Assembly (NCBI RefSeq): GCF_004010195.1
Contig: NC_057719.1
Span: 49,127,336 to 49,191,335 of the forward strand
Origin: Chiloscyllium plagiosum
Lineage: Eukaryota
Length of the DNA stretch: 64,000 nt
Reading direction: 5' to 3'
Below, one piece after another: positions 21,666-64,000 of this stretch (its first letter is position 1; each line of letters opens with the position of its first letter). A model generated the notes under the pieces. The model worked only from the letters and a program-made list of their open reading frames with translations. It was not told the origin of the DNA and did no database searches. A program made the position numbers and the translations under genes.

Positions 21666-21742
21666 GAATTTTTTTTTGGTGAGTGATGTCACTGGGGGCG
21701 GAAGTGGCTGCGGCGAGGCAGCATCCAAGGAGCAGGAGAATC

Positions 21743-21770
21743 GATGTTTCGGGCATGAGCCCTTCTTCAG
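21743..21770 (-). ncRNA. Minimal type I hammerhead ribozyme motif (copy 2 of tandem pair)
   Basis: Identical core 105 bp away, within a direct tandem duplication (~21612-21822). Confidence 0.7.
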
Positions 21771-23933: not shown

Positions 23934-24267
23934 TATCTAATGAACACAGTCTGCAGATTTCTCAGCGACAAACCCAAACAAACAGACAAAACACATCCAG
24001 AAACCCTAGCCACTCTCCCCTACATCAAAGACATACAGGAAATGACTGCCAGACTACTCAGACCCCTTGGCATCATGGTAGCCCACAAACCCACCAACAC
24101 ACTAAAACAGCAGGTAATGTACTTGAAAGACCCTATACAGACAACAAGCAAAACTAATGTCATTCACAAAATACCATGCAAGGACTGTAACAAACACTAC
24201 ATTGGACAAATGGCAGAAAACTAGCCACCAGGATAGATGATTAACAACTAGCCACAAAAAGACCTGA

Positions 24268-42171: not shown

Positions 42172-42420
42172 AGGTGGCATGGTGGTGCAGTGGCTAGCAC
42201 TGCTGCCTCACAGTACCAGGCTCCCAGGTTCAATTCCAGCCTTGGGTGACTGTCTGTGTAGAGTTTGTACATCGTCTGCGTGGATTTCCTCCCACAGTCC
42301 AAAGATGTGCAGGTCAGATGAATTGCCCATAGTGTTGGGTGCATTAGTCAGAGGGGGGTGGGTTACTCTTTGGAGCGTCGGTTTGGGCTGAAGGGCCTGT
42401 TTCCACACTGTAGGGAATCT
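42172..42420 (+). mobile_element. HE1-type V-SINE with internal deletions
   Basis: Head, partial V-domain and tail. Confidence 0.88.
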
Positions 42421-43559: not shown

Positions 43560-45300
43560 ATGCTGCCATCCAGTCATTGTCTTTTACACTGCAGTCCTGC
43601 ACTGTTATCCCCAAGAAAATGGTCCAGAAATGCTAGTGGTGGAGAGGAAGGTAGTACCAGCAAAGGAGGTCAGGCTATCAGACCCAGTCAGTCTGGACCC
43701 AGATAGTAGCCTAGCTCAGCGCAGTGTCTTGGGTGAAACTCACTACACAGCACTACAGGAAGCAAGTTAATGATCTCTTGTGCACCGTAACCATTTTCTC
43801 TCTCCTACCTCATACTCACAGTGCCATCACTCACTCTAATTCTCACGCTAACCACTTCACGCTTTGCATGAGGTTCATGGAGTACAACTCTCATGGTTGT
43901 ACTCATCATGTCCGCTTAGAGATTCTCATCTATCTCATCCTCTAAAACCACTAACTCTTCCTGCCTTCTGCAGATCCTACTCCATCACTGGGGGCACTTC
44001 CAAACTCTTCTCCTCATTCCTCACTACTAACTGTTCTTCCTTGCACTTCCATCAGACTCAATCCCTCTCTTTGTCTCAATGCAGCAGAAAAGGATCCACA
44101 ACTGCCAAGAGGGCGAGGGGAGGTGGGGAAATGGCGGAAATATGGCTCCTCATGCCACATGAGGGAAAAGTCTTGGATTTGGTTGAAGAAGAACATGCCT
44201 GCCTACAAGGGGGATGGTGTTAGGACCTCATCTATCCTAATCGGAAACATGAGTCGCAAGTGGACATTTAGACACTGATGTGTTGTACAGAGTGAATTAG
44301 TTGTTGGTTTTAACAGCTTGTAGGAAAAAATGGAACAATGTGGTTTTCACCTATTTGATACACATGGCCTTGTAACTTTTGACAATCTGCATTTGACAGT
44401 GCTGGCATCAGGTGTCTTTGAGTTAAAATCTATCTAGCAACAGCTTTTATTACTGTCACAAACTGTCACAGGACTGAGAGAAGGACTTCATCCTCCGAAC
44501 AATGTCAGCCAAGACAGGTCTCTCTCTTTCTTCCGCTCCTGTGAGTGGAAGAAAAGACCCTAAGACCCTGAAAGGAAGAATTTCTAACTCAGGCAAAAAA
44601 TACCAGCTTTCACTTGCGTGTTCCACCAGCTCAGAGACTTTCAGCAACATGGGACTCTAACCAGATTAGATTTGGGAGTACAATCTGGTGAGAACTGACA
44701 CATCTCTGCAGCTGGTCAAAGAAGAAGCTCCTAATTCTCTAGACACTCAAAGGACTACCAGACACCATGCACCTGCTCAGGGCCAGGCAGCAGGCAATCA
44801 AATGGACTTGACCATTAATGGCTTCTTCAAAATGCACAGACTGGCATAGGGATAGCAGGGAGGCATATCTGAGGCAGTTTGCACAAATAATATCAAGAGT
44901 CCATCAGAATTCAAGACCTTGCTAGCTTCAACATGAATGTTTCTGGCTGTCTCCATGCAGAATTTGGACACTGCTATGCAGTCCCAGGTCCAGCATACTG
45001 AGTATCTGCACAGACCTGCACGCTATTGCTGTAACCAATGGGGCTTAGTATCAAAAGCAAGGAAAATGTGGAGCACAAAGGATCTACAGCTCACCCTTTC
45101 TCTCACCGGAATAGGGATGTAGCAGAAAGCACCCCTAGAGAGGAAGAGTCATACACAGAATCTCCAAATACTTCCTCTCAAAATGCTCCAGAGATAGTGG
45201 GCTACTCCACCGCCAACCTGCCAGTGGTGTCAAAACCTGTGCAAGTCCAAACCAAGGATGGTGAGCCTAACATCTCCCTCCACAACAACCACTTTGACAT
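43560..45300 (+). mobile_element. Harbinger Myb/SANT-like accessory gene remnant
   Basis: ~43694-43780 reads WTQIVA*LSAVSWVKLTTQHYRKQVNDL, resembling the trihelix motif WxxIAxxVxxxxxxxRTxxQCRKKxNDL. The extent is uncertain. Confidence 0.45.
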
Positions 45301-46193
45301 AAAGGGAGAAAAATTAAGAAAATATCTTACTGAGGGCACATAAGTGTCACAGATAACACAGCATTATAAATTATTGCATACTTTTGAAAATATATATGCA
45401 TTTTCACTCTTAAACTGGCTACTCTGGTATCTTTGTTGCTGTTAGAGCTGGTGAAGTCACACGAAATGAGCAGCCCTCTTCAGATACCCCATGGATGACA
45501 CAAGTTATAATGGCCAAACATTGCTCATCTCTCACTAGTAACAGACTCCTGGACAGCAGACAGCATAAAATGTTGAATTATGGCATTGATAACTGCAGCC
45601 AAGGCATTGCACTTTACTGCAGACAACACTGAGGCTACCTAATCTTAGTGCCATGTTTGTTAGTGCACTTTTACATTGATTGCTGGTTTTTCCCTAATGG
45701 TCAATAAAGCATGGTATGTATAGATATTTGAAAGTGGAATCACCCAAAGACATCAAGCATGTAATCAGATGGAATACAAAATATTTATTCAGCAACAGGA
45801 AAGGTCCAGGGATGCAAAAATAACTCAGTACACAGATTTTTTTGCATTAAACACGGACTGTTTGCTGTTTTCATTGCTCCCAAGTGTGGGCACAGCATGT
45901 CAAATTGATACTGAGATCCATCTCCAGGCAACAGCTATGGGTTTGAAAACCATGAAGCCATTAGTGCATTAAGCTAATGAAAGGAGCTGCATAACGATTC
46001 CAGGCCTAAGGTCATGGTAGGATATGGCCATCCAAGTGTTGGCTTCCCACATGCACATTGCTGAATTAGTTCCTTCATCCTGATAATAAAATGGTAGACC
46101 CTCAGACAATGACTAAAATTGCACTACTTAGTAAAATGAGGCATAAGGGGTCATAATTTTTTTTGCAAAATGTAAAGTGAAGGAAGAATACGA

Positions 46194-46513
46194 GGGAGGC
46201 AATGGCCCAGTGATATTACCACTGGATTGTTAATCAAGAGACCCAGGTACTGTTCAAATCCTGCCATGGCAGATGGTGGAATTCAGAATTAAGAATCTAA
46301 TGATGACCATGAAACCATTGTTGACTGTCAGGAAAAACCCACTGAATTCACTAATGTCCTTCAGGAAGAGACACTTCCATCCTTACCTGGTCTCATTAGC
46401 ATGTGACTCCAGAAACACAGTTATGTGGTTGACACTTAATTGCTGACTGGGCAATCAGGAATGGGTAATAAACACTGAACCAGTGAGCAATGCTCTCATC
46501 CTGTGAATGAATA
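46194..46513 (+). mobile_element. Deu-domain SINE (SacSINE1-like)
   Basis: tRNA-like head (tggcccagtg...gttcaaatcc), Deu-like core (cactaatgtccttcagg...ccttacctggtct...atgtgactccag...atgtggttgac) and a LINE-like tail ending tgaatgaataa. Confidence 0.75.
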
Positions 46514-46937
46514 ACACATTATTATAAATTATTATAATGTCTTTAAATCAAGTCATGAGATGTTCTTTCAAACTGAGAAAACCTATGCTCACTTTGTGTC
46601 CCAGACCTGTTCAAGGAATGCCTAATTAACACAGTCAGAGCATATAGATTCATTCACAAAGGAACAGGTTTAATTCTGGTGGCGTGACTTTATAGTTGAT
46701 TTCTTCATCTGAATCTGGAGTAAGCTGATGTTGGACAGATTAAGACTCAGACAGAAAGTAAAGCAGAGAGACTCAGCATCAGTCTATTTCAAAGGATTTG
46801 GAAGAAGTTATCTTAAATAGGGTGTTGCAATCTCTTACCCATAAATTTCACAAATTTCCTGCACTAATTTATTTTGGATTCAATCAATGAAACAATATTT
46901 TATAAGGAATCTTCATAACTCAGTTATTCTATTTACA

Positions 46938-48578
46938 GTCATAGAGTCATAGAGATGTACAGTACGGAAACAGACCTTTCAGTCCAACTCATCCATGCCG
47001 ATTAGATATCTTAACCAAATCTAGTCCAATGTGACAGCACTTGGCCCATATCCTACTAAACCTTTCCTGCTCATGTACATATCCAGATGCCTTTTCAATG
47101 CTGTAATTGTATCAGCCTCCACCACTTCTTCTGACAGCTCATTCCATACATGCACCACCTTCTGCGTGAAAACATTGCCCCTTAGGTCCTTTTATATCTT
47201 TCCCCTCCCACCCTAAACCCATGCCCTCTAGTTCTGGACACTCTCACCCCAGGGAAAAGACTTTCTCTACTTATCCTATCCATGACCCTCATGATTTTAT
47301 AAACCTCTATAAGGACACCCCTCAGCCTCCGACACTCCAGGGAAAACAGCCCCAGCCTATTCAGCCTCTCCCTATAGCTCAAATCCTTCAACCCTTGCAA
47401 CATCCTTATAAATCTTTTCTGTATCCTTTCAAGTTTCACAACATCCTTTTGATAGCAAGGAGACCAGAATTGCATACAATATTCCAACAGTGGCCTAACC
47501 AATGTCTTATACAGCCGCAACATGACCTCCCAAATCCAATACTCAGTGTTCAGACCAATCAAGGAAAACATAACAAACGCCTTCTTCACTCTCCTATCCA
47601 CCTGCGGCTCTACTTTCAATGAGCTATAAACCTGCAATCCAAGGTTTCTTTGTTCAGCAACACTCCCTAGGACCTTACCATTAAGTGTTTAAGTCCTACT
47701 CTGATTTGCTTTTCCAAAATGCAGCACCTCACATTTGTCTAAGTTAACTCCCATCTGCCACTCCTCAGCCCATTGGCCCATCTGATCAAGATCCCATTGT
47801 ACTCTGAGGTAACCTTCTTCGCTGTCCACTACACCACCAATTGTGGTGTCCATATTACAGAGGAGTGGGTGCTGGATGTCTTGAAATGCATAAAAGTCGA
47901 TAAATCCTCAGAACCTGATCAGGTGTACCCTAGAACTCTGTGGGAAGCTAGGGAAGTAATTGCTGGGCCACAGGTATCATTTGTATCATTAATAGCCACA
48001 GGTGAGGTGCCAGAAGACTGGAAGTTGGCTAACATGGTGCCACTATTTAAGAAGGGTGGTAAGGAAAAGCCAGGGAACTATCGACCAGTGAGCCTGACAT
48101 CGGTAATGGACAGGTTGTTGGAGGGAATCCAGAGGGACAGGATTTACATGTATTTGGAAAGGCAAGGACTGATTAGGGATAGTCAGCATGGCTTTTTCTG
48201 TGGGAAATCATGTCTTACTAACTTGATTGAGTTTTTTGAAGACGTAACAAAGAGGATTGATGAGGGCAGAGCGGTGGACGTGCTCTATGTGGACTTCAGT
48301 AAAGCCTTTGACAAAGTTCCCCATGGGAGACTGGTTAGCAAGGTTAGATCACATGGAATACAGGGAGAACTAACCATTTGGATACAGAACTGGCTGAAAG
48401 GTAGGAGACAGAGGGTGATGGTGGAGGGTTGCCTTTCAGACTGGAGACCTGCGACCAGTGGAGTGCCACAAGGATCGGTGCTGGGTCCACTACTTTTCGT
48501 CACTTACATAAATGATTTTGATGTGAACTTGGAGGTATAGTTAGTAAGTTTGCAGATGACACCAAAATTGGAAGTGTA
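46938..48578 (-). mobile_element. CR1 LINE, 5'-truncated with 5' inversion
   Basis: 46938-47850 is the 3' end on - (LVRPLLEYCMQFWSP; ctctatgac tail). 47847-48578 is the upstream RT segment on + ([30 protein letters not shown]). Confidence 0.9.
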
Positions 48579-49074
48579 TTTGTTTAAAATAAAATCAAAT
48601 GAACTATTTGCAAAATATATTCGTTTTTTCCTTATGCAAATACCTTTATTCAAATATTTAATCATTGAAAATAAATTATTTCAATTAAACATAGATTAAT
48701 TATTCAGAATTAATTGATAACATTCAGAACATTTGTCATCTAACTTCCTATTTCTATTTTCATTACTTTAACCAGTGGAGATTAAAGTTGGTTTTCCATG
48801 AATGAAAAGCAGTTATAAAACAAAAGTACTTAATAATGCAACAGCAGAATCATCCAATTATGATTTTCTAATTATTGTTTTTTATTGAAGAAACAATGTG
48901 TTAATTTCCTCTATTCCAAAAGATTTTATGTTAAGAGATATTTCATAGCAATTCTACTACATTCTATCAAAAGCAGCTCTGGTCTTCATTACTGTCCTAG
49001 AAGTGTTAACCATTTTATTTAAGTTTGGTTGATATCATTTGTGAAATAATGGATGGAAAGGGGTACATATTAAC

Positions 49075-49334
49075 AAGCTCAGAATTCGCCATTCAGCTCT
49101 CTCTGCCATTTAAAAAGGCCATGGCTGACCTGAGTGTATACTCAAATCAACATTTTGACCCATTTTGATGACCTTTCACTCCATTGATTATCAAGAATCT
49201 ATCCACCTCTGCCTTTAATATATTCTAAGCCTATCATCTTTATAGGAAGAGAATTCCTAACTCTCTGAGAGAAGAAATTTTACTTCATTTTGGTTTCCAG
49301 TGGGTGACACCTGATTTTTAAATAGTGACCCCTT
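49075..49334 (-). mobile_element. Old CR1 3' fragment, cut by the gap
   Basis: gccattcagc...catggctgacct...atccacctctgcctt...gagagaagaaattt is the antisense of a CR1 end. Confidence 0.6.
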
Positions 49335-49834
49335 NNNNNNNNNNNNNNNNNNNNNNNNNNNNNNNNNNNNNNNNNNNNNNNNNNNNNNNNNNNNNNNNNN
49401 NNNNNNNNNNNNNNNNNNNNNNNNNNNNNNNNNNNNNNNNNNNNNNNNNNNNNNNNNNNNNNNNNNNNNNNNNNNNNNNNNNNNNNNNNNNNNNNNNNNN
49501 NNNNNNNNNNNNNNNNNNNNNNNNNNNNNNNNNNNNNNNNNNNNNNNNNNNNNNNNNNNNNNNNNNNNNNNNNNNNNNNNNNNNNNNNNNNNNNNNNNNN
49601 NNNNNNNNNNNNNNNNNNNNNNNNNNNNNNNNNNNNNNNNNNNNNNNNNNNNNNNNNNNNNNNNNNNNNNNNNNNNNNNNNNNNNNNNNNNNNNNNNNNN
49701 NNNNNNNNNNNNNNNNNNNNNNNNNNNNNNNNNNNNNNNNNNNNNNNNNNNNNNNNNNNNNNNNNNNNNNNNNNNNNNNNNNNNNNNNNNNNNNNNNNNN
49801 NNNNNNNNNNNNNNNNNNNNNNNNNNNNNNNNNN
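49335..49834. other. Assembly gap (500 N)
   Basis: A run of exactly 500 N. The round size suggests a scaffolding placeholder of unknown true length. Confidence 0.99.
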
Positions 49835-49879
49835 CAAGTTGTGGTAATAATGACTGATTTTGCGATAGTTTAACTGAAA

Positions 49880-50500
49880 CAAATTGTAGCTCCCCTGAAG
49901 CCATCTTTTGGATACGCAGTTTAACAGTGCAGGCAGTGTAGTCCTATAGAGGTTGTGCTTGGGTGTCATCAGAATAGATTTAGAAGGTGACTGAATAGCC
50001 TTGGATATCCTTGCTAAGAATTGACATTTTAATGAGAGGAGTGGATTAAGGATAGAAACTTGAGGAATTCCAGAGGCAACTGTGTGGATAGGGCAATGAG
50101 TTGGTAAATAGTATTGATTAAAGAGTGGAAAACCCCACTGAGCAAGATATAAGATATAGAGAGAATGGTCGAGATGACGACAAGCACTGACACAAAGCTT
50201 AAGGAGGGAAGATGTTTCATTTCATAATTGTAGAAGAGACCACTTTTGATTTTAGTAATCTGAATTCTGATGGAGAAATTATGACACAGACGATCAAGGA
50301 GAAAATAGGGGAGTTATCTAGCAGATAGGGAGATTTGGCTGCAGTTTGGTGAATTGTAAAGAATGAGTTGCACTGATGGAGAGACAGGTGTATGGTGTAG
50401 TTATAGTGGCGAACTGCCACTGTTGTCATTTAGTTGAGGTAGATTGTGGTTAATTTAGCCAGGCAGCATTGTTGAGGGATGTAGCACTGTTTTGCCACTC
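49880..50500 (-). mobile_element. Old L2-like LINE fragment
   Basis: Purine-rich, antisense-like decayed sequence (gagatttggctgcagtttggtgaatt...gatggagagacagg). No ORF support. Confidence 0.35.
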
Positions 50501-50633
50501 ATGAGCCAACCTGCAGTCAGGTTGTTTCATTTATCCACAACCAGACTGAGAAAATGTGGAAGAAGCAGTGATTCTTAATGTGGCGGTATAACACTGGTAT
50601 TTAACATTAGGTGAATGTACTTTTATGCAATAG

Positions 50634-50781
50634 GCTTTTGGAAGAATTTGTGAATCACATTGAGGAGCTGAAGATGTTGGATGAACGCATTCAAAGGAGA
50701 GTGGAAAAATTGGAGCAACAATGCCAGAAGGAAGCCAAGGAGTTTGCCAGGAAGGTTCAAGAATTACAGAAAAGCAACCAG
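50634..50781 (+). CDS. EXOC5: Exocyst complex component 5 (SEC10), internal coding exon, probably exon 3
   Basis: ttttatgcaatag|G...CAG|gttagt; 148 nt. Encodes (R)LLEEFVNHIEELKMLDERIQRRVEKLEQQCQKEAKEFARKVQELQKSNQ, close to the vertebrate EXOC5 N-terminal region as I recall it (RLLEEFVNHIQELQIMDERIQRKVEKLEQQCQKEAKEFAKKVQELQKSNQ). Confidence 0.96.
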
Positions 50782-50957
50782 GTTAGTGGAGTATCATGGG
50801 GATTTTCAGATTGAAAATGCTGTATTTTAAAGTACGGTGCGTTTACACCAACCAGATTGAAAGTGATTTAATTTTTAAATTTATACTTTTCATTTAAAAA
50901 AATCACTGCATGTGTACCTGAAGTAGAATAAATAAAGCTGATTATTTGTTGAATATA

Positions 50958-51314
50958 CGAGGAGAAAGTGAGGACTACAGATGCTGGAGATCAGAGCTGA
51001 AAATGTGTTGCTGGAAAAGTGCAGCAGGTCAGGCAGCATCCAAGGAACAGGAGAATCGACGTTTTGGGCATAAGCCTTTCTTCAGGAATGAGGAAAGTGT
51101 GTCCAGCAGGCTAAGATAAAAGGTAGGGAGGAGGGAATTGGGGGAGGGGCGTTGGAAATGCGATAGGTTCCAATGCCCCTCCCCCAAGTCCCTTCTCCCT
51201 ACCTTTTATCTTAGCCTGCTGGACACACTTTCCTCATTCCTGAAGAAGGGCTTATGCCCGAAACATCGATTCTCCTGTTCCTTGGATGCTGCCTGACCTG
51301 CACTTTTCCAGCAG
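50958..51314. mobile_element. Palindromic PLE-B terminal-repeat element with 15-bp TSD TATTTGTTGAATATA
   Basis: TSD at 50943-50957 and 51315-51329. Inverted arms at 51009-51157 and 51168-51313. Hammerhead motifs at 51058-51085 (-) and 51240-51267 (+). Confidence 0.9.
51240..51267 (+). ncRNA. Minimal hammerhead ribozyme motif
   Basis: CTGAAGA-A-GGGC-TTAT-GCCC-GAAAC-ATC. Confidence 0.68.
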
Positions 51315-51587
51315 TATTTGTTGAATATAGCAAGCATTGGCATGAACTGTGCAATTGCAATTCTTTGTTTTCAGTTTTAAATTATTTTTGCTTATTGAAC
51401 TCGTGTAGCACAGTAATTGTAAGCAATACAGTCTTTAATGTAACACCTTCATTTGTTATAGTCATGATTTATAAGACTTAAATCTAGTGGTCTGTCATAG
51501 AGAAAGTGATTGCCATAATGCATTTCTGCCTACAGTTTCAACATCACACCCATCAATCCAAACAGTATATCTAGTTTCTGATTTAAA

Positions 51588-51765
51588 GTTAAAAATCACA
51601 CAACGCCAGATTATAGCCCAACAGGTTTATTTGGAAGTACTAGCTTTCAGATCACTGCTCCTATCACCTGAAATAGTGCTTCCAAATAAACCTGTTAGAC
51701 TATAACCTGGTGTTGTGATTTTTAACTTTATCCACCCCAGTCCAACACTGACACTCTATATCATG
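51588..51765. mobile_element. Palindromic PLE-derived element (GAAAGCT family)
   Basis: Arms gttaaaaatcacacaac...aggtttatttggaag / cttccaaataaacctg...gtgatttttaac. A decayed core (GGAGCAGTGATCTGAAAGCTA) lies on the - strand. Confidence 0.7.
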
Positions 51766-51892
51766 ACTAATATCTGATGCCACTGCTGTCAAAGTGATGG
51801 TAATAAAAATGTAGGATGCAATAATCAGCAAACTATTCAATAGCTTGGATGATTCTTGTAAATGGTTAAAGTGTTCCTTGATTTCTTACACT

Positions 51893-52978
51893 GGATGCTG
51901 GCATTGCTAGCCAGGCTAGTATTTATGTCCTGAGGAAGGTGATAGAGAGCTGCCTACTTGAACTACTGCAGTCCACGTGGTCTAACGACATCCATTGTGC
52001 TGTTAGAAAGGGTGCTCAAGGACTTTGACCCAATGACAATGAAGAAATGGCACAAGAGAGTTCCAATTCAGGATGATGTGTGGTTTGGAAGGGAACTTGC
52101 AGTTGGTTGTGTTCCCATGTCCTGGGTAGAGGTCATGGGTTTGGAAAGTGCTTTTGGAGGAGCCTTGGTGTATTTTGTAGACTAGGCCAGACCACTCAAA
52201 ACATTCTCAAGCAGGCTGCCCAGACCATAACTTTGCAATTTGTTTCAATAAGTGTACAGTGAAAATTACCTGGAGTAAATTAGCTAGGTTGACTACCAGG
52301 TTTTAAAACAGACAAAAATTTATTCACAAAATTATACAATGAAACACAAAGAACCCCCACAGAACTCAGTCTATCCAAACTGAATATACACCACAGTCCC
52401 AATAAGCAACCCCCCTTAAAAAGTAAAAATGGAACAAATGCTTACAGGTTGAAGTTAGAAGGGCTGAAGGAGAGAGAGAGAAAGAGTCTGTTTCCATACA
52501 GCTGAACACCTCAGTAGTTCTGGACTGAACTGCTCAGCTGGAGAGCTGACACCTCCCCTTTCATTATATAGGTTTCTTCTAAAACATGACCACTTTGGCC
52601 TGAAGTCTCATCTGTTTATATATAAACAGAAAGGCCCCTCAATACTCTTTAGTTTCTGTACCAAGCTAGTCACCTCGGAGCCGGGAGAGTTTTTTACCTC
52701 TGAAAAAATAATCAAGGACACAGTATCCTTGAGAAAAGGAACAGCTTTTAGAAAAAAGGGACCAGCTTTGTGACAGTACAAACTGTTGTCAGTATCTGTT
52801 GGTGTTGGAGGGTGTGAATTTTGAAGAGTGTGAACGGTGTGCTAATTGAGTAAATGGCTTTGGCCTGGATGGTTTTGAGGTTTTAGATTATTGTTGGAAC
52901 TGCACACATCCAGGCAGGTGGAGGGCGTTTCACCACACTTGATTTTGACAGACATTGGGGAATCAAGCTGAGTTATTT
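51893..52978 (-). mobile_element. Old LINE 3' region (same family as 9140-9836), interrupted by an LTR-like unit
   Basis: Antisense match to the 9230-9430 sequence (ttggaaagtgct...gccttggtg; tgttggtgttggagggtgtgaa). Confidence 0.6.
52181..52775. mobile_element. Solo-LTR-like insertion
   Basis: A ~600-bp non-coding block that interrupts the LINE and ends ...tgtgaca. No clear TSD. Confidence 0.5.
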
Positions 52979-53190
52979 GCCTTTTGGCTCGGAATATGTG
53001 TAGTTTCTGAGGACCAGAGGAAGAGTTTCTGCTCGAGCGCTGCAGGTTCGACACAGCGGACGTGTGCTAGCGGGGGAGAAACCACGTGGATCGTGTTGCG
53101 AGGCGTCGGACCTGCTGGAGACCATCACTGGATCGTGATTGGACGTAGAAGGATCGTTTGGTTGTGCTGACCTGCTCTTGGTGGATCTTT

Positions 53191-54604
53191 ATGCTGGCTT
53201 CCGCCTAATGCCAATTCAGGTACCAGCCAACCGCTCGCAGCCCAGGCCAGGGCATTCTCAACACAGTCAGGGTGACTGTGAAGAAGGTGGAGGAGCACAC
53301 ACCGGTAGATCGGACGGTGTTCGTGAAGAAGATTTTGCTGGAGTGCTGCGGGTTCGAAGCAGCTGACGTGTACTGCCTGCAAGATTTCCCTGCGGCAGGC
53401 TATTTCGACGTGACCTTCAGGAGCGTGAAGAATTGCGAGCAGCTCCTGAAGGTCTTCAAGGAGAAGGAAGGGGAACCTCTGTTCTCCATCTTGTCGGCGG
53501 TCCCGTTGTGTGTGCTTCCTGCGCAAAGGAGTCGGATTGTAACAATCAAGATGTACAACCCTCATGTCCCAGCAGCAGATTTCCTGACCTTCTTGAGAAG
53601 ATACGTCCAGGTCGAGGGAGAGAGTACCGATGTGGTCGATCCTTTCGGGATCTAGACCAGCAAATGACAGGTCAGGGTAACCCTGAGGATCGATGCCAAT
53701 GGGAACATCCTCAACCCACCCTCCAGCTTTGCCATCGGAGGAAGCAGAGGTTACCTGACATACGCAGGGCAGCCAAAAGTGTGCCGAACCTGCGGGAGGT
53801 CAGGACACATGGCGGCGGATTGTAAGGTGACCGTCTGCCAAAACTGCAAGCAGGAAGGCCACCCGACAAAGGAATGTAAGGAGGCCAAGAACTGTAATCT
53901 GTGCAGAGAGGCGGGCCACATGTACAAGGCCTGCCTAAGACGAGGGGCCGCCACCTACGCACAGATGGCCGGAGGTGGCAACACGGCAGGCTGTAGCGGA
54001 GCAGACGGCAGACAGCGGGGAGATGCAGCAGCCGATCCAAGCGCCTTCAAGACAGACGGAGAAAATGGAAGAGCAGGGATCAAAGGAGGCAGAGGATTGG
54101 ATTACTGTCAAAAGCAGGAAGAGGAAACCTCCCAAAGCCACCCAGCGAAGGGGGAAGCGACACCTACACGACGAGGATACAGGCAGCTCTTCCGACGGTG
54201 AGGACGGGCGCAAGGAGGATTGTCACCAGAGGAAGAGATAGAGCGCCGCGGGGAAAAAGGAGGGCAGCACCGCCCAAGCAGGAAAAGACGATCCCTCTGA
54301 GGGGGTGGGTAAAGGCCTCCCCGCACCCGGTGAGAACCAAGAGGTACCCACCGGCCCACAGCGCCAGGTAACTGGGAGCAGCGGTCCTGTGACAGCCCCG
54401 CTGTCAGATGGAGAACTGGACTATGCAGACCCTTGGCCCTACCCGAAGGCACCAGAGTGGGGAAATGGCTCCAGCATGGAGCTGGACAGCTACCTCAGCC
54501 CTGGGAGGATCCAGCAGTTTGCTGTCACCACGGGGATGCACACAACTACCCCAGAGGGGCAAGACCAGCAGCAAATGGACAGTGTTAACCTCGTAAACTG
54601 TTAA
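53191..54604 (+). pseudogene. Tx1 ORF1 (gag-like, 3x CCHC zinc knuckle; ZCCHC3-like), disrupted
   Basis: DVYCLQDFPAAGYFDVTF, CRTCGRSGHMAADC, CQNCKQEGHPTKEC and CNLCREAGHMYKAC. In-frame stops (e.g. 53653) and frameshifts. The start is approximate. Confidence 0.85.
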
Positions 54605-54605
54605 A

Positions 54606-57600
54606 ATGGGGTTAAAAATTGCCAGCATCAATGTGCGTAGCATCAAATCAGCTACGCGATGTGTTTCTATGATGGCCTTCCTGGCCAACGTTAAAGCCGA
54701 CGTCCTGTTTCTGCAGGAGTGTGGGATACCGCACCTCAGCAGCTACAGGAGATGGTCGAGCTTGTGGGCCCATGGGCCGTCAGTTCGATCGGGGGGCAAC
54801 GATAGCCGCGCCTCCGGCCTGTGTATCCTGTTGTGAGGAGGCAACTTCACCATCTCCGAGGTTAAGGAGGTGGTGGGCGGTCGCCTCCTCGTCGCCGACG
54901 TCATGTACAGGAATGCTCCCCTGAGACTGATTAATGTGTACGCCCCAGTGGGTAAGAGTGAACGGTTGGCCGTTCTGCAGCAGCTTCCACTGTTGCTGGC
55001 TACGTCCAGGCCGGTCATTCTGGCCGGAGACTTCAACTGTATCATTGATGCAGATGGACGATCCGGCGGGGGAGACAGTAAACTGGACGCCACGTCCAGA
55101 GCCCTGATGGACATGGTAAAAGATGCCAAGCTGCACGACGTCTTCAGCACCCCTCCAGATGGAGCGCAGCGTAGATACACCTGGTCACGGGCAGACGGGT
55201 CTATCTGCTCAAGGATAGATTACCTGTTTGTGTCCCGAACGCTCTCGGTCAGATCGACCGACGTCAAGCCAGTGTTCTTCTCTGACCACTGCCTCCTGCT
55301 GGCCAACTGTCACCTACAGGACTAGCAGCGGGCTGGTAAGGGAACGTGGAAGCTGAACACAAAGCTGTTGACCCCGGGAAACATTGAGGAGCTCAAGAGG
55401 GACTACGCAGGTTGGAGAACCGTGAAGCCCCTCTTTGAGTCCCCAGCGGACTGGTGGGAAACAGTAAAAGGGAACATCAAGAGGTTCTTCATCCTCAAAG
55501 GTGTTCAGGAGGCGAGAGAGAGGTGGGGAAAACTGTCCCAGCTCCAGGAAAGTATGCAGAACCTGCTTCTGCTGCAGACGATGGGGGTGTATGTTACGGA
55601 GGACCTCAAGGAGGTGAAGGGCCAGCAAGCCTCGGTCTTTGCCTCGGAGGCCTCCAAGATAATCTTCCGGTCCAGGGTCCGCTCGGTGGAGACGTGCACA
55701 CGTTTCTTCTTCCAGAAGATGCACAAAGAGAGCTCCATGCTCAGCAGCCTGAAGGAAGAAGATGGCTCGATAACGTCATCTCAGGCTGACATCATGAGGA
55801 TCAGCAAATCCTTCTATGCCAATCTGTATGACGCAAAGCCGACTGACAGCGCGGCCTCCCAGTCGATTAGGTCCTCTATCACGGAGGTCTTAGACGACAG
55901 AACATGCGAGAGGCTGGACCAGCCGCTATCTCTGGACGAGCTGACCAAGGCGCTTGAGTCCTTCGAAAAGAATAAAACTCCCGGAAGCGACGGCTTACCG
56001 GTCGAGCTCTTTTCCGCTCTGTGGGACTTGATTGGCCAGGACCTGCTGGAGGTGTATGTCAGTATGCTTTGGGCAGGTACCATGAGTGAATCCATGAGGA
56101 AAGGCATCATCACCCTCATCTACAAGCGGAAGGGGGAGAGGGAGGAACTCAAAAATTGGAGACCAATCTCACTATTGAATGCGGATTACAAAATTCTGTC
56201 AAAGGTAATCGCCAACCGGGTCAGTTCTGCTCTGGGGTCGGTGATTCACCCTGACCAAACCTGTGCTGTGCCGGGCAGGAAGATCGCTGAGAGTCTCGCA
56301 CTCCTCAGGGATACGATCGCCTACGTACAGGACAAGGGGCTGGACACCTGCCAGATCAGCCTGGACCAGGAGAAAGCCTGAAACAGGATATCACACAGGT
56401 ATATGAGAGATGTTCTCTCCAAAATGGGCTTTGTGGAGGGAATCTGCAATTGGATCAGACTGCTCTTCACCAACATTCAGTGCAGTCTCAATCAATGGGT
56501 GGGAAACAGACAGCTTCCCAGTCAGATCTGGAATCAGGCAGGGCTGCCCTCTCTCTCCTGCCTTGTTTGTGTGCTGCATAGAGCCATTTGCTGAGTCCAT
56601 CAGGAAGGATGCGAGCCTGAGAGGGGTGACTATTCCTGGCAGCGAGGGCCTGCAGATTAAGACCTCCCTGTACATGGATGACGTCGTCGTTTTCTGCTCT
56701 GATCCGCTGTCCGTGCGCAGACTCATGTGCATATGTGACCAGTTTGAACGGGCCTCGGGGGCCAAGGTAAACCGAATCAAGACCGAGGCCATGCTCTTCG
56801 GGAACTGGGCCGACAATCCTCAATCCCCTTCACCATCAAGACCGACCACCTGAAGGTGCTGGGTATTTGGTTCGGGTGGGCTGGGGTGTGCGCCAAGTCT
56901 TGGGAGGAGCGTATCAGCAAAGTGAGGCAGAAATTGGACAGATGGAAGCTACGGTTGCTCTCCATTGCGAGAAAAAAACCTGGTCATCAGATGTGAGGCA
57001 CTGTCATTGCTATTATATGTGGCACAGGTCTGGCCTATTCCCAGAACCTGTGCCGCTGCAGTCACCCGGGCCATCTTCCAGTTTATATGGAGGTCAAAGA
57101 TGGACTGGGTCCGAAGGGACTCGCTGTACGAAGATCTGGGCAACGGGGGAAAAAATACACCCAATGCCACCCTCACCCTGATGGCCACCATTATGTGTGG
57201 CTGCATCAAGCTGTGCGTGGATCCCCGGTACGCAAACACCAAGTGTCACTACATACTGAGGTTCTACCTGTCCCCGGTGCTGCGAAGGATGGGCCTGGCC
57301 TCGCTGCCGCGGAACGCTCCGAATAGTTGGACCGTTCCGTATCACCTGGCCTTCGTGGAGAAATTTATCAAGAAAAACACCTTTCGACCACAAGTCCATC
57401 AGGAAGTGGTCAGCACCTAGTGTCCTTGAGACCCTTCTGGAAAAGGAGAGGGCGGATCCTATCGAACGGTTCCCTGAGCAGACTGTCAAAGCCATTTGGC
57501 AGAATGCCTCATCACCAGAACTTTCCAACAAGCACCAAGACATGGCTTGGCTGGTGGTGAAAAGGGCTCTGCCTGTGAGATCCTTTATGCACCTCCGGAC

Positions 57601-58003
57601 TCTCAGCCGCACCGCACGCTGCCCTCAAAGCGGCTGCGGGGGGGACGAGACTGTCACACACCTCCTTCTGGAATGTGCCTACGCAGAGGAAGTCTGGAGA
57701 GGAATGCAGTGGTGTTTGTCGAGGTTCGTCCCGAGCAGCGCCGTGACGCGGGACTCCATGCTCTATGGTCTGTTCCCCGGGACGCACACCGAGACGAACA
57801 TCAACTGTGCCTGGAGGATCATCAACTCGGTGAAGGACGCTCTCTGGGGGGTCTGAAACCTGTTGATCTTCCAGCTGAAGGAGTTGACCCCAACTGAGTG
57901 TTGCAGAGCGGCACATTCCAAGGTCCAGGACTACGTGCTGAGGGACACGCTGAAGCTTGGGGCAGCTGCCGCCAAGGCGCGGTGGGGAAAGACCACTGTG
58001 TAA
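54606..58003 (+). pseudogene. Tx1 ORF2 (APE endonuclease, RT, C-terminal Zn motif), disrupted
   Basis: SINVRSI, FLQEC, INVYAP, AGDFNC, SRIDY, SDH; KTPGSDGLP, NWRPISLLNADYK, GIRQGCPLSP, YMDD; CPQSGCGGDETVTHLLLEC. Confidence 0.92.
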
Positions 58004-58789
58004 CATCTGCCTGCCTAAAGAAGAACAGGGGGCCCGTGCAGTCATTTGGGCTCTGCTGACGCCTCAGGTAAAAATGTAATCGTACAGATCTGTAAATAGG
58101 AATGATTACTCTGTTTTCGATATGCAAACAAATGGAATATTTACATATGTATGGCATGTCCAGTTGTACAGATCAATAAAGTATTTTATGAATAAAGTAT
58201 ATTTTTGAAATAAAAAAAAGGAGATAGTTATATATTAACTGCCAAGGAAAAGCTATTAAGGTACAGTGCCAGCGATAAGCAGTAATCAGTTAGAAGTGGA
58301 AGATAAGTTTATATTTTCATTACTGGGGTTAAACTGAACAATATTAAAATCTAGATGGTAAGTGACGCCCCTCTAACTTATTGTTCAAATAATGTCATTT
58401 GACGTGACAGGAAGATGTTGGGATTGTAACCTCATTTGAGATCAAATAATGTCATCTGCACTATTTTTGATGGTTGAACAAGTCAATTCTACGAAGATGA
58501 ATTCTGCCACAGGTACCACAGAGAAATTGATCCTTGCCAGTGATATGTGATGATCTCTGACAATTTTTTTGCTGAACTTACATCTACTTTGAAACTTCTG
58601 AATGCACATGTTAAACTGCTGGTGAATTGCTGCTTGTAACTTACATCAACATATTAGGAATTGTCTGGTGAGGACATGCTGTGCCTTTGTCTTGGTTTTC
58701 ACTCTTTCTAAGCTGAGGAGTTTCCCATCCAATCATGTCTGGAAGTACATTCCTTTTATGTTGGCAGGGAAAATTAAGTTTAGAAGAAC

Positions 58790-60303
58790 AGAGGAAGCTA
58801 GAGAAGTGATTGTTGGACCCCTTGCTGAGATATTTGTATCATTGATAGTCATAGGTGAGGTGCCGGAAGACTGGAGGTTGGCAAACGTGGTGCCACTGTT
58901 TAAAAAGGGTGGTAAGAACAAGCCAGGGAACTATAGACCGGTGAGCCTGACCTTGGTGGTGGGCAAGTTGTTGGAGGGAATCCTGAGAGGCAGGATGTAC
59001 ATGTATTTGGGAAGGCAAGGACTGGTTAGGGATAGGGTTAGGGATAGTCAACATGACTTTGTGTGTGGGATATCATGTCTCACAAACTTGATTGAGTTTT
59101 TTGAGGAAGTAACAAAGAAGATTGATAAGGGCAGAGCAGTAGATGTGATCTATTTGGACTTCAGTAAGGCGTTCGACAAGGTTCTCCATGGGAGACTGAT
59201 TAGCAAGGTTAGATCTCATGGAATACAGGTAGAACTAGCCATTTGGATATAGAACTGGCTCAAAGGTAGAAGACAGAGGGTGGTGGTGGAAGGTTGTTTT
59301 TCAGACTGGAGGCCTGTGACCAGTGGAGTGCCACAAGGATCGGTGCTGGGTCCTCTACTTTTTGTTATTTACATAAATTATTTGGATGCGAGCATAAGAG
59401 GTACATAGTAAGTTTGCAGATGACACCAAAATTGGAGGTATAGTGGACAGCGAAGGAGGTTATCTCAGATCGTAGCAGGATCTTGATCAGATTGGCCAAT
59501 AGGCTGAGAAGTGGCAGATGGTGTTTAATTCAGATAAATAAGAGGTGCTGCATTTTGGGAAAGCAAATCTTAGCAGGACTTATACACTTAATGGTAAGGT
59601 CCTAGGGAGTGTTGCTGAACAAAGAGGCCTTGGAGTGCAGGTTCATAACTCCTTAAGTTGCAGGTAGTTAGGATAGTGAAGAAGGCATTTGGTATGCTTC
59701 CCTTTATTGGTCAGAGTATTGAGTACAGGAGTTGGGAGGTCATGTTGCCGCTGTACAGGACATTGGTTAGGCCACCATTGGAATATTGCGGGCAATTCTG
59801 GTCTCCTCCTTATCGGAAAGATGTTGTGAAACTTGAAAGGGTTCAGAAAAGATTTACAAGGATGTTGCCAGGGTTGGAGGATTTGAGCTATAGGGAGAGG
59901 CTGAACAGGCTGGGGCTGCTTTCTTTGGAGCGTTGGAGGCTGAGAGGTGAATTTATAGAGGTTTACAAAATTATGAGGCGCATGGATAGGGTAAATGGGG
60001 TTGGGGAGTCCAGAACTAGAGGGCATAGATTTAGGGTGAGAGGGGAAAGATATAAAAGAGACCTAAGGGGCAATTTTTTCAGAGGGTGGTACGTGTATGG
60101 AACGAGCTGCCGGAGGAAATGGTGGAGTCTGGTACAAGTGCAACATTTAAGAGGTATTTGGATGGGTATATGAATACGAAGGGTTTGGAGGAATATGGAC
60201 CGGGTGCTGGCAGGTGGGACTAGTTTGGGTTAGGATATCTGGTCGGCATGGACAGGTTGGACTGAAGGGTCTGTTTCCATGCTGTCCATCTCTATGACTC
60301 TAT
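58790..60303 (+). mobile_element. CR1 LINE, 5'-truncated
   Basis: PLFKKGGKNKPGNYRPVSLT, DFSKAFDKV and LVRPPLEYCGQFWSP motifs; tail ctctatgactctat. Confidence 0.93.
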
Positions 60304-60799
60304 ATGCTTCTAAGAGATCGACAAAAGTAACCTAGAGTAGTAATTTGGTGTTCTTCACAATCTTGAAGCTGATTTAAAGGTGAGATGTCTATTGTTGATC
60401 TGCCTACTCTGAAGCCACATTGTGGTGGTGTGTTCTGGATCACTCAGTGAGTGATTGTGTCAATAATATGGACTTGGTTGCGTGCATGTCTTAACCTGGA
60501 GCTTTAGATAATGTTGCTGGAGACTAACTATCTTGCCATCATATGGCTGACCAGGAATATCACTCCCTCCTTATTTCCTCAATGTGCTGGAAGGATTTGC
60601 GACTAATCGTTCTGAGTGACAGCATTATGAGCCTATCTCTCACCAAATAGATTAATTGTGGAGATAGAAAACATGAAGAGTTAGAGGCGTGGTCTTTGCT
60701 TCTCAGTTTTAATGTTGGGATGGTTGTTCTGCATTTGGCCAGACTGCTTGTTTCAGATTTTTCTCTCTGCTACCATTTTGTAAGAAGTATCCGATTCAC

Positions 60800-61290
60800 T
60801 TGGGGAAAAAATATCTGATTTATGATTTCAAAATCACAGTTTAAAGGAAATGTCACTGGAAAGGTAATGGTTTTCTTTCTTGTTTTAATTTGAGTTTTGA
60901 ATGCAGACACCAGGTAGCTTCTGGGTTGGGAGAAGATCTGCACACTTCTTCTCTCTCTCTCTCTCACACTGTCTGTTTCCATCTCAAAGTAGCGCAGCCA
61001 CCTGGGAAACAATCTCAAAATTTTTGAAAAGCAAAGGTCTCTAGGTCAATCTTGTTGCCTACAAGAGCTGCATCAGTACATATCCTTGGAGTGATCGTCT
61101 GCAGTCTGAATTTCAATTCCTGCTTGTTCAAACACCTTGTTTACATTGTCTGCCATGGCTGTTTGGTTTTGTGCTTTCAAAAGTGCAGCTATTCTTTCAA
61201 AGACTGATTTTTTTTTTGTTTTGAAAGTGTTTTCTCATTTCAGTCCACAGTTTTTAAAAACACAAAAATAAAAAGACCCAGTCCTTAGAT
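60800..61290. repeat. Possible LTR-like repeat
   Basis: (ct)n tract followed by ctgtctgtttccat, and an end (aaaagacccagtc) loosely like the 52181-52775 unit. Confidence 0.25.
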
Positions 61291-61907
61291 TATTATATGG
61301 ATATACCAATTATTATTATAGCTCACTGCAGAATTTTTTTGTTTTAGAATGATGTAAAAGCAAGAGTTTTGTGAAAATGAGCATATTAGTTGAAGTTCAA
61401 CACGCTTTGCAAGGAGCGTATTGACAGAGTTGTGACATTGGCTTTTATACAGGTGAAAGATCTACAATTTGAGTTTGGTGTTCATAGTTTATTCAGTCTT
61501 CATCTTTGTAGCAGGGAGTTTGAACCCATCATGTCTGTGCTGGCACTTTGTTGAGCTATCCAAATTATATGCCTGTTCTCTCTACCTTTCCCTTTAATGA
61601 ATTGAATAGTCTCTGCTTCAACTACTCCCTGCTGCAAAGCAACTCATGCTCCAGTAACTCTATGCTCATAAATTTGTGGTAATCTCTCCTCAATATTTTA
61701 ATGACATTTTTAATTGATTCCTTCCTACTGACTCATCAACCAGAGGAAATCATCTTTGCCTGAGGACTTTATGAAAAAGTTTTAAGAAAAGCTGCCTTAA
61801 ACTTCTAAACTTCTTTACACAAGTGGAATTGTTCTTGTATCTTCTCACGGCAAATTTCTTGAAACCATTCTGGTGAACCTGTACTCTTAATTGTGTGGCC
61901 TGTCCTG

Positions 61908-64000
61908 AGGGAAGGTGATGTCCTTGTAGTTTTATTGCTTGACTATCAATCCAGGAACTCCACTAAAGTTCTGGGGACCTGGGTTTGAATCCCACCATGG
62001 TAGGTAGTGGAATTTGAATTCATTAAGAACATCTGGAATTAAGAATCTACTGATGACCATTAAACCATTGTTTATTGTAGGAAAACTCAATCTGGCTCAT
62101 TAATGTCCTTCAGGGAAGGAAGCCTGCCATCTTTGTCCGGCCTGGCCTACATGTGACTCCAAACCCACAGCCATGTGGTTGACTCTCAGCTGCCCTCTGA
62201 AATGGCCTAGCAAGCCACTCAGTTTTATCAGTCGCTGCAAAGTCTCAACAAAGAAATAAAATCGGATGTATTACCTGGCACCAGAAAAGGCAATAGTAAA
62301 AATAGACCTATCAACTATGCACAGTTTTCCTTACTAACATATAGGGATTAGTGCTAAAATTGGGAGAGCTGTCTCACAGACTAGTCAAGCAAACGCCTGA
62401 TATACCTTACAAATGATATCCCAAGATTTGTCCTGTCCTGCTGGCAGAACAACCTAGCAGGGTGGCGACACAGTATACTGTTGGGAGGGAGTTGCCCTGG
62501 GAATCCTCAACATTGACTCTGGGTCCTATGAAGTCTCATGGCTTTAGATTAAACATAGGCAAGAAAACCTCTTGCTGATTACCACATACCATCCCCCCTC
62601 AGCTAATGAACCAGTTTTGCACCATCTTGAACAACACTTAGAGGAAATACTGCGAGTGGCAAGAGTGCAAATATACTCTCGGCGGGGGATTTCACTGTCC
62701 ACCACCAAGATAGCGTCCGCATCAGTGCTACTTATTGAGTTGGTTGGGTGCTAACTGCAAGACAGGTTGTGTGGGAGGTGGTGAGGGAACCAACAAGAGC
62801 AGAAAAACATACTTGACTTCATCATTACCAATCTGCCAGCTGCAGGTGCATCTGTCCATGACAATATTGGTAAGAGTAACCACCACACAGCCCTTTATGG
62901 AGACAAAGTCTTGATTTCACATTGAGAATGCCCTCCAACATGTTGTGTGGCACTATCACTATGCTAAATGGGACTGACTTCGAACAACCAAACAACTCTA
63001 AACATCCTGAGACACTGTGGGCCATCAGCAGCAGTGGAATTATGCTCCAGTACAATCTGAAATCTCATGGCCTGGAGTATCCAATACTGAACCATTACCA
63101 TCAAGCCAGGGGATCAACCATGGTTCAATGGAGAGTGCAGGAGGGTATGCCAGATGCAGCCCCCACATACTAAAAATGAGGTGTCAACCTGGTGCAGCCT
63201 CAAAACATGCCAAACATCATAAGCAGCAAGTGATAGATCTAAGCTCTGCAGTCCTACCACATCCAGTCATGAATGGTGGTGGACAGTTGAACAACTCATC
63301 GGGATATGAGGCAATGTGAGTATCCTCATTTTCAAAGATGGAACAGCATGCAAAAAGTAAGGCTGAAGCGTTTGCAGCAACATTCACCTAGAGGAGGCAA
63401 GTGGATGATCCATTCAGATTCCTCCAGTCATCCCGAGCATTACAGAAACCAGTCGTCTTCAATTTACCTCACTCCACTTGATATCAAGAAACAGTTGAAA
63501 GCAGTGATACTGCAAAGGCTATGGGCCCTGACAACATTCCGGCATTTGAAACGCAGCAGAACATGCCACTCACTTAAAATATTTGCATCTGTCTGACAAT
63601 GTGCAAAATTGCCCCAAGTATGTCCTGTAAATACAAAGCAGGACAAATCTAACCAGGCCAGTCACTGCTCCATCAGTCTACTCTGAGACATCAGTAAAGT
63701 GATGGAAGATGCTGTCAAGTAGCACCTGCTTAATAATAACTCAGTTTGTAATGCCCAGTTTGAGTTCTGCCAGGACCATTCAGCTGCTGACCTCATTATA
63801 GCCTTATTTCAACGTGGACAAAACAGCTGAATTCCAGAGATGAGCTGAGTGTGTCAGACCTTGACATGAAGGCTGCATTCAACAGGGTGCGGCATCAAGG
63901 AGCTCTATCAAAATTGGAATCAATGGGAATCAGGGCAAACTCTCCAATGTTTGTAGTCATACCTGGCACATGGGAAGATGGCACGTGTTGGAGGCCAGTA
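61908..64000 (+). mobile_element. Old CR1/L2-group LINE with a Deu-SINE-like 5' head; APE-RT ORF decayed, runs off the window
   Basis: 61908-62224 matches the SINE at 46194. From ~62325 it reads GLVLKLGELSHRLVKQTPD, LLITTYHPPS, KAMGPDNIP and LDMKAAFNRVRHQGALSKL. Confidence 0.8.

What the first reader, a model, noticed from the sequence alone, without database searches (positions are those of the whole stretch)
52979..53009. U2 snRNA-like leader on the Tx1 element, outside any U2 gene
Seen: the element begins GCCTTTTGGCTCGGAATATGTGTAGTTTCTG. Against vertebrate U2 nt 12-42 as I recall them (GCCTTTTGGCTAAGATCAAGTGTAGTATCTG) this is 25/31 with no gaps and includes the branch-point-recognition GTGTAGT. 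Known: Keno-type Tx1 elements target U2 genes near this position, and snRNA-headed SINEU elements are thought to be mobilised by Tx1. The 3' flank here (gagatagttata...) is not U2. Inference: this may be a Keno-related lineage that fixed its former target as a 5' leader and now inserts elsewhere.
Basis: partly seen in the sequence, partly recalled or inferred. Interest (0 to 1): 0.7.

Follow-up and report, generated by a model that had tools for sequence, protein, structure and literature searches.

The report
Shark retrotransposon with inherited U2 head
A dead copy of a shark jumping gene begins with a worn piece of the U2 splicing RNA, probably left over from ancestors that inserted into U2 genes; similar U2-headed elements are already described in crocodilians, so this is a new example of a known kind.

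Summary
The match is real: 52979-53009 equals U2 nt 12-42 at 25 of 31 letters. It is the best U2 hit in the window (1 of 400 shuffles as good window-wide, 0 of 5000 locally). It heads a broken, full-length Tx1 LINE (52979-58219) of a shark-like genome. In DNA runs of three organisms the leader is part of a multicopy element. Long contigs start at it, other copies carry U2 nt 1-11 in front, and an apparent empty site runs to 52981 without it. So the family head is U2 nt 1-42 and this copy is slightly 5'-truncated, joined through a 3-base microhomology. ORF2 groups with elements that sit in U2 genes (AU test p 0.083). Those elements have heads of the same build: exact U2 to nt 21-26, then drifted U2-like sequence (12 of 14). 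Best reading: the head is an inherited Keno-type 5' junction. Template switching, the published explanation for crocodilian U2-headed Tx1-11_Crp, is not excluded. The scan noted another copy in this genome before (e1-7789567). New member of a known kind.

The parts
52979..53009 (+). U2-derived leader (U2 nt 12-42, 25 of 31); exact to U2 nt 22, diverged at U2 nt 23, 24, 27, 28, 30 and 38
   Evidence: part of the multicopy element
52979..52981 (+). 3-base microhomology shared by the leader and the pre-insertion flank
   Evidence: X10 record 9 follows the window to 52981 and then leaves it
52981..53021 (+). Predicted hairpin formed by the leader and the next 12 element bases; weak support
   Evidence: -14.7 kcal/mol, z -1.18, 25 of 200 shuffles as good; controls 0.036, 0.047, 0.10
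53010..53230 (+). Rest of the CpG-rich 5' UTR (CpG observed/expected 0.88 over 52979-53230 against about 0.2 in the flanks); internal promoter inferred, not shown
53231..54604 (+). ORF1, broken: two ZCCHC3-type RNA-binding domains (53260-53484, 53545-53763) and CCHC knuckles (from 53779); this copy lacks 21-23 bases at 53230-53232 that hold the start codon in other copies
   Evidence: tables 4 and 7
53368..53379 (+). Best match to the U2 target motif (U2 nt 31-42, 9 of 12) within 53010-53400; three joints in organism C put a new element 5' end next to this site
   Evidence: rank 1 of 379 positions; tables 5 and 5c
54606..58003 (+). ORF2, broken by stops and frameshifts: apurinic-type endonuclease, reverse transcriptase, C-terminal zinc-binding domain
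58004..58219 (+). 3' UTR with AATAAA signals and an 8-base poly(A) end (58212-58219); the last 20 bases resemble the ends of U2-inserted relatives L043 and L063
52780..52981 (.). 5' flank: an old multicopy repeat, not a U2 gene or U2 promoter; found without the element in organism C
   Evidence: depth peak 52885-52926, loose ends at 52923, X10 record 9
58220..58250 (.). 3' flank: not U2 nt 39 onward; no target-site duplication found

Best explanation
The leader is the inherited 5' junction of a Keno-type ancestor. Step 1 (shown for relatives): Keno-type elements insert so that U2 nt 39 onward follows their poly(A) tail, while the U2 promoter region and the start of U2 lie in front of them. Step 2 (inferred): they are transcribed from the U2 promoter, so the RNA begins at U2 nt 1, and full-length reverse transcription copies that U2 stretch. 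Step 3 (inferred): the copied end anneals to U2 nt 1-21/26 of each new target. That part stays identical to U2, while the stretch beyond it is handed on by the element and drifts. Step 4 (shown for this family): the head, U2 nt 1-42 with fixed changes after nt 22, is now a family character, and copies carry it to sites that are not U2 genes. Step 5 (shown for this copy): it lost the first 11-14 bases, joined an old repeat through a 3-base microhomology, left no target-site duplication and has since decayed. How copies outside U2 genes are transcribed is open; an internal CpG-rich promoter or source copies still in U2 genes are the two candidates.
For: Leader shared by other copies: summed contig depth goes from 0, 0 and 40 (bin 52948-52968) to about 4,800, 4,500 and 43,000 (bin 52969-52989) in the three DNA runs. 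Four long pieces run from 52977-52981 into the UTR (X1 record 1; X6 records 25-27). Two X10 contigs carry U2 nt 1-11 and 7-11 before 52979. Diverged letters are the family's own: run X1 lists no C>A place at all and both of its T>C places lie outside the leader, so 52990 and 52995 are not U2-like in 8% or more of its depth (tables 1 and 3). Kinship: ORF2 falls in a clade with three U2-inserted elements (L043, L060, L063; 99/96), with a fourth (L064) next outside (98/98) (same nesting in the 122-row tree). ORF1 has the same domain set as L043 and L060. Same head build: of 14 heads of U2-inserted elements, 12 are exact to nt 21-26 and then drift, with 65 of the next 140 letters still matching U2. 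The shark head is exact to nt 22, and three of the 14 share its change at nt 23. Its end (nt 42) lies 4 bases past the Keno nick at 38/39 (PMC4640811; PMC6136364). A hint of residual target taste: 3 of 4 listed joints that restart the element's 5' end leave ORF1 at 53362, 53364 and 53375, beside the best U2-like site of that stretch. Precedent for the mechanism: off-target Drosophila R1A copies keep upstream 28S sequence (PMC2718515, passages).
Against: The AU test does not reject a tree with the four U2-inserted elements together and the shark element outside (p 0.083). The targets of its closest relatives (P0005, P0006, 45% identical) are unknown. An end at nt 42 is not diagnostic: L036 is a U2 nt 1-42 copy followed by non-U2 DNA, and 57 of 58 characterised human U2 copies are 3'-truncated (PMC4476161). 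Only 2 of the 14 Keno heads reach nt 39 or beyond. Crocodilian relatives carry U1 heads as well as U2 heads, which a U2 target cannot explain (PMC4494074). Depth in the leader bins includes some true U2 (X1 loose end at 53009) and is no copy number. The 14 heads are not independent (several come from one assembly or close families). No 3' flank of another shark copy and no transcript start was seen.
Confidence: 0.6

Rival explanations
1. Template switch: a Keno-related family that had already left U2 genes picked up a 3'-truncated U2 RNA during reverse transcription, and that chimera became the master copy. This is the route proposed in print for SINEU heads.
For: PMC4494074 reports recurrent 5' addition of U1 and U2 pieces and U1- or U2-headed Tx1-Mar families that cluster with Keno. 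3'-truncated U2 copies are the rule in the human genome (57 of 58). L036 stops at nt 42 with non-U2 DNA behind it. Two X6 contigs follow U2 to nt 45 and go on with other sequence (table 7).
Against: U2 chimeras with repeats are rare in the human set (1 of 58). It needs a Keno relative to capture by accident the same RNA and nearly the same stretch that its kin hold as target. The exact-then-drifted pattern matches 12 of 14 real Keno junctions.
Confidence: 0.25
2. The family is still an ordinary U2-specific Keno whose source copies sit in U2 genes; this copy is a stray off-target insertion, and the head is just the 5' end of a U2-promoter transcript.
For: Head starts at U2 nt 1 in other copies. 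It would solve the promoter problem. Joints beside a U2-like site suggest that the endonuclease kept some of its taste. Off-target copies with target leaders are known for R1A.
Against: The head variants seen with a readable 5' neighbour follow the element's own ORF1 (two X10 contigs), and this copy follows an old repeat. None was seen behind a U2 promoter, but upstream letters were mostly not shown. An earlier unchecked note reports another non-U2 copy in this genome (e1-7789567).
Confidence: 0.12
3. The match is chance, or the element landed in a decayed U2 pseudogene, so that the 31 bases belong to the flank.
For: Rfam does not call it; the first three bases do belong to the flank as well; window-wide significance is only 1 of 400 before allowing for the other small RNAs one might have compared.
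Against: The apparent empty site in organism C stops matching at 52981; depth rises a hundredfold or more at the leader; other copies extend it by U2 nt 1-11.
Confidence: 0.03

Closest known systems
Tx1-11_Crp and other Tx1-Mar families of crocodilians (Kojima 2015, PMC4494074)
   Same: Tx1-clade LINE that clusters with Keno, carries a U2-derived 5' end as a family trait and inserts outside U2 genes.
   Different: Host is shark-like. No Mariner target was seen here. The paper reads SINEU heads as template-switch products, whereas the comparison here favours a kept target junction. Sequences of the crocodilian heads (Fig. 1B, supplements) could not be seen, so no direct comparison was made.
Keno (U2-specific Tx1 LINEs; PMC4640811, PMC6136364, PMC4494074), represented here by U2-inserted loci L037, L040-L071
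   Same: ORF1 and ORF2 architecture, tree position, look of the tail end, and a 5' end made of exact U2 followed by drifted U2-like sequence.
   Different: This copy has no U2 promoter in front and no U2 nt 39 onward behind; ORF2 identity to the nearest U2-inserted loci is only 37-38% over the endonuclease and first half of RT.
SINEU-1/-2/-3 (PMC4494074)
   Same: snRNA-derived head on a retroposon moved by Tx1 machinery.
   Different: SINEUs are short and non-coding; this is a 5.2-kb two-ORF element.
Melanogaster-type R1A elements (PMC2718515)
   Same: Works alike: upstream target sequence rides on the transcript, anneals at on-target insertions with loss of a few target bases, and shows up as a leader on off-target copies.
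   Different: Different clade and target (28S rRNA gene).

Membership tests
Tx1 clade non-LTR retrotransposon | ORF1 with RNA-binding domains and CCHC knuckles; ORF2 with apurinic-type endonuclease, RT and C-terminal zinc domain; poly(A) end | tested here: met
Tx1 clade non-LTR retrotransposon | RT clusters with named Tx1 members | tested here: inconclusive
   Clusters with U2-inserted APE elements that fit the published Keno definition; no named Repbase Tx1 sequence was available. The family name of P0046 (BAC82605.1) comes from no call.
Keno | 3' flank is U2 from nt 39 onward | tested here: not met
   Not met for this copy; 3' flanks of other copies were not examined
Keno | 5' flank is a U2 gene start with its promoter | tested here: not met
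   Upstream DNA is an old repeat present without the element in organism C; real U2-inserted loci keep the upstream region of intact U2 genes
Keno | ORF2 within or next to the U2-targeting lineage | tested here: inconclusive
   Nested in the best tree, 99/96 and 98/98; exclusion not rejected, p-AU 0.083
U2-headed Tx1 (Tx1-11_Crp type) | U2-derived 5' end shared by copies of the family | tested here: met
   tables 2, 5c and 8, three DNA runs of three organisms
U2-headed Tx1 (Tx1-11_Crp type) | Copies lie outside U2 genes | tested here: met
   This copy and two X10 contigs; share of all copies not measured
Tx1-Mar | Preference for Mariner-N4_AMi or related transposons | not testable with these tools
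   No genome held and no repeat library
SINEU | Short (under about 500 bp), non-coding | tested here: not met
   5.2 kb with two ORFs
U2 snRNA gene or pseudogene | Rfam RF00004 match; sequence beyond nt 42 | tested here: not met

The most novel reading that the evidence does not exclude
The head is not a passive relic but a selected 5' module. After leaving U2 genes the family kept about 50 bases that are better shared across copies and species than the UTR behind them. They refold the U2 start into a hairpin, with the branch-point-pairing bases in the loop, and no longer match the endonuclease target. The endonuclease still favours U2-like sites, including one in its own ORF1. Keno target junctions, not template switching, would then be the source of U2 heads on Tx1 LINEs and of U2-headed SINEs, and these sharks show the intermediate stage.
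Probability: 0.15. Interest if true: 0.62.

Novelty: new member of a known kind. Interest (0 to 1): 0.36.

Why it matters
It gives a second vertebrate lineage with a U2-headed, Keno-related LINE. It also offers a testable alternative to the published template-switch account of snRNA heads: that a site-specific element keeps the front of its old target gene when it loses specificity. With a shark assembly the question can be settled by counting flanks. It also bears on how elements that borrow a host promoter survive outside their target. The copy itself is dead and has no evident function.

Tried and rejected
Rfam found no U2 in 44000-64000 or 52930-53200. The window holds no second copy of the element. 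No target-site duplication: the longest shared words between the flanks are 6 bases and not at the junctions. The 5' flank's resemblance to U2 nt 26-42 scores 8, reached by 123 of 2115 tiles, so it was set aside. The hairpin is not significant by shuffling (25 of 200) and only marginal in targeted controls (0.036, 0.047, 0.10). A fold-back of the U2 start is not general among Keno heads (1 of 4 folded shows it clearly). The search for related loci with the ORF2 alignment in genome contigs gave 9 pattern matches and no relative. Of 6 loci, two (L038, L039) had no Tx1 protein match and were dropped. Pfam found nothing in the three minus-strand frames of the 5' flank; that it is an old LINE is my recollection of similar shark repeats, and only its multicopy nature is shown. 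No RNA holder was listed. The one run guessed to be RNA (X16) barely covers the leader, which is no evidence on expression. No paper on a shark U2-headed Tx1 turned up. Kojima and Fujiwara 2004 and Repbase entries were not seen, and the supplements of PMC4494074 could not be read; they may already list such a family or show the crocodilian head ends.

Full report
The sequence. The 31 letters lie at 52979-53009. To avoid relying on a recalled U2, I fetched U2 genes with a pattern search (35 loci in genome contigs, 1 in viral contigs). Rfam called U2 in 20 of the 20 loci I submitted out of these 36. Against L001 the window matches U2 nt 12-42 at 25 of 31, exact to nt 22. It is the best ungapped U2 match in the window (19 against 14 for the next). 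Shuffled U2 reached that score in 1 of 400 trials window-wide and 0 of 5000 in 52900-53200. Rfam does not detect it.

The element. The leader opens a GC- and CpG-rich stretch that ends in an 8-base poly(A) at 58219. ORF1 has two ZCCHC3-type RNA-binding domains and CCHC knuckles. ORF2 (54606-58003) has an apurinic-type endonuclease, RT and a zinc-binding domain. Both are broken by stops and frameshifts. The named proteins with the highest identity are partial matches from Heterodontus (up to 76%) and Scyliorhinus (64%), so the host is probably a shark; this is inference. No target-site duplication was found, and the 3' flank is not U2.

Is the leader part of the family? No genome was held, so I laid contigs of four runs from four organisms on 52780-53400 at 80% likeness. 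In the three DNA runs summed depth is 0, 0 and 40 in the bin before the leader, about 4,800, 4,500 and 43,000 in the bin where it starts, and stays in the thousands. Depth here is no copy number and includes some real U2 (an X1 loose end at 53009 goes on as U2). Among the 32 pieces listed, four run from 52977-52981 into the UTR (X1 record 1, X6 records 25-27); one of them has 270 other letters in front. Two X10 contigs carry U2 nt 1-11 and nt 7-11 directly before 52979, so the family head is U2 nt 1-42. One X10 contig (record 9, depth 40) follows the window from 52780 to 52981 with 10 differences and then leaves it for 442 letters. I read it as the empty site in a relative, which makes 52979-52981 a microhomology and excludes an insertion into a U2 pseudogene. 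The diverged letters seem to be the family's own. X1 has no C>A place at 8% or more and both of its T>C places are outside the leader. No leader position is among the 40 rows shown of 119; the 79 hidden rows may include minority U2-like letters in X6 and X10. The fourth run (X16, guessed RNA) barely covers the leader and says nothing on expression.

Comparators. The Keno 3' flank starts at U2 nt 39 (PMC4640811 section 6 and supplement passages; PMC6136364 passages). A search for poly(A) joined to that motif gave 6 loci in genome contigs (two dropped as chance) and 29 in metagenomes, evidently host DNA. Fourteen of these 35 loci include the 5' end of the inserted element (one internal pattern hit in L057 was left out). 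Where checked (four heads in L040-L042), the DNA in front matches the upstream region of an intact U2 gene. The heads are exact U2 to nt 21, 22 or 26 in 12 of 14, to nt 39 and 51 in the other two. After the first mismatch, 65 of the next 140 letters still match U2. These heads are partly related to one another. Three share the shark head's change at nt 23. So a head of exact U2 followed by drifted U2-like sequence is the normal 5' end of elements inside U2 genes.

Tree. I used the endonuclease and first half of RT (P0002, one frame, X at stops). A FastTree run on 122 rows (14 U2-inserted loci with long matches, 107 of 120 homologues, the query) and an IQ-TREE run on 43 rows chosen from them agree. 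The shark element pairs with P0005 and P0006 (100/99), inside a clade with U2-inserted L043, L060 and L063 (99/96), with U2-inserted L064 next outside (98/98). Forcing those four together without the shark element costs 29 log units but is not rejected (p-AU 0.083). The model was LG+G4 without mixture, and the targets of the unlabelled rows are unknown. Keno-related is well supported; descent from within the U2-targeting set is likely but not proven.

Residual targeting. Within 53010-53400 the best match to U2 nt 31-42 is 53368-53379 (9 of 12; rank 1 of 379). Of the four joints in table 5c that return to the element's 5' part, three (X10) leave ORF1 at 53362, 53364 and 53375, which correspond to about U2 nt 25-38; the fourth (X6) leaves at 53392. 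This fits Keno geometry, but it rests on three contigs of one organism, and I noticed it after the fact.

Structure. 52981-53021 folds into one hairpin that accommodates all six non-U2 letters, but 25 of 200 shuffles fold as well and targeted controls give 0.036, 0.047 and 0.10. Depth is about three to thirteen times higher over the first 50 bases than over the UTR just behind, which hints at conservation but has other causes too.

Mechanism. Most likely (0.6) the ancestor sat in U2 genes and was transcribed from the U2 promoter. Its RNA began with U2 sequence, the first 21-26 bases were renewed by annealing at each on-target insertion, and the rest drifted. The shark family now carries this head to other sites. 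The flanks and heads are shown; transcription from the U2 promoter and the annealing step are inferred, by analogy with R1A (PMC2718515 passages). The main rival (0.25) is template switching. In its favour, crocodilian relatives also carry U1 heads, L036 is a U2 nt 1-42 copy followed by non-U2 DNA, and 57 of 58 human U2 copies are 3'-truncated (PMC4476161 section 5; tailless retrocopies, PMC2912911 passages). A third reading (0.12) is a still U2-specific family with strays.

What is known. I read parts 1-4 of 5 of PMC4494074 (figures and supplements not seen). It describes crocodilian Tx1-Mar families that cluster with Keno and insert elsewhere, of which Tx1-11_Crp has a U2 head and three others a U1 head. 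Searches showed no shark case; Kojima and Fujiwara 2004 and Repbase were not available. Earlier unchecked notes of this scan report another copy in the same genome with a 42-base U2 head outside a U2 gene (e1-7789567) and a U2-headed chimera (e1-8025441). I had reached my reading before seeing them, and they are not counted as support.

Verdict. Real, family-wide, and a new member of a known kind. The comparison with true U2-inserted elements adds an argument that such heads are kept target junctions. Interest 0.36.

Noticed in passing
window 52176-52775: A 600-base stretch bounded by TG and CA interrupts the old repeat upstream of the element; it looks like a solo LTR, with no clean target-site duplication.
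   Followed up: no
window 51065-51259: Long fold-back repeat that draws many below-threshold microRNA hits in Rfam; its arms recur at 21575-21842, 22601-22732, 24266-24767 and 30412-30545, so it is probably made of a small repeat family.
   Followed up: no
window 2612-2903, 6775-7101, 7454-7770, 15205-15453, 17041-17363, 17553-17852, 42173-42422: At least seven copies of a 300-base SINE-like family, 67-88% alike.
   Followed up: no
window 46941-48578, 58793-60303, 29879-31393, 24853-25515, 21053-21439: Fragments of another LINE family; RT matches seen at 29799-30158, 47854-48519 and 58803-59399.
   Followed up: no
window (about 49-50 kb): The window holds 500 N, apparently an assembly gap about 3 kb upstream of the element.
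   Followed up: no
window 57998-58009: A 10 of 12 match to U2 nt 31-42 spans the ORF2 stop codon; by my estimate about 0.2 such matches are expected by chance in the element.
   Followed up: partly
L064 (head at 88, junction at 5142 in element orientation): U2-inserted element whose head is exact to U2 nt 51, implying a duplication of about 13 target bases, unlike the deletions in most relatives.
   Followed up: partly
L040:487-566, L041:12732-12791, L042:12472-12531: Three Keno heads from one assembly share a GGCGAAGC motif shortly behind the U2 part; in L042 it pairs back onto the U2 start in the predicted fold.
   Followed up: partly
L006-L008, L011, L012, L015, L016, L020, L021, L028, L029, L032-L034, L040-L042: Contigs filed under a bacterial MAG hold tandem animal U2 genes with several different Keno-type insertions; this is host DNA contamination of GTDB genomes.
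   Followed up: partly
L036:290-342 (minus strand): An IMG/VR record holds a U2 nt 1-42 copy followed by non-U2 DNA, probably a truncated retrocopy in eukaryotic DNA.
   Followed up: partly
X6 loose end at window 53009: Two contigs follow U2 to nt 45 and then go on with unrelated sequence: another U2-headed element or truncated U2 copies in organism B.
   Followed up: no
P0012 cluster and P0015 cluster: Related ORF2 proteins occur as neighbouring locus tags in Coilia grayii and Gastrophryne carolinensis, as expected of insertions in a tandem gene array; their flanks were not seen.
   Followed up: no
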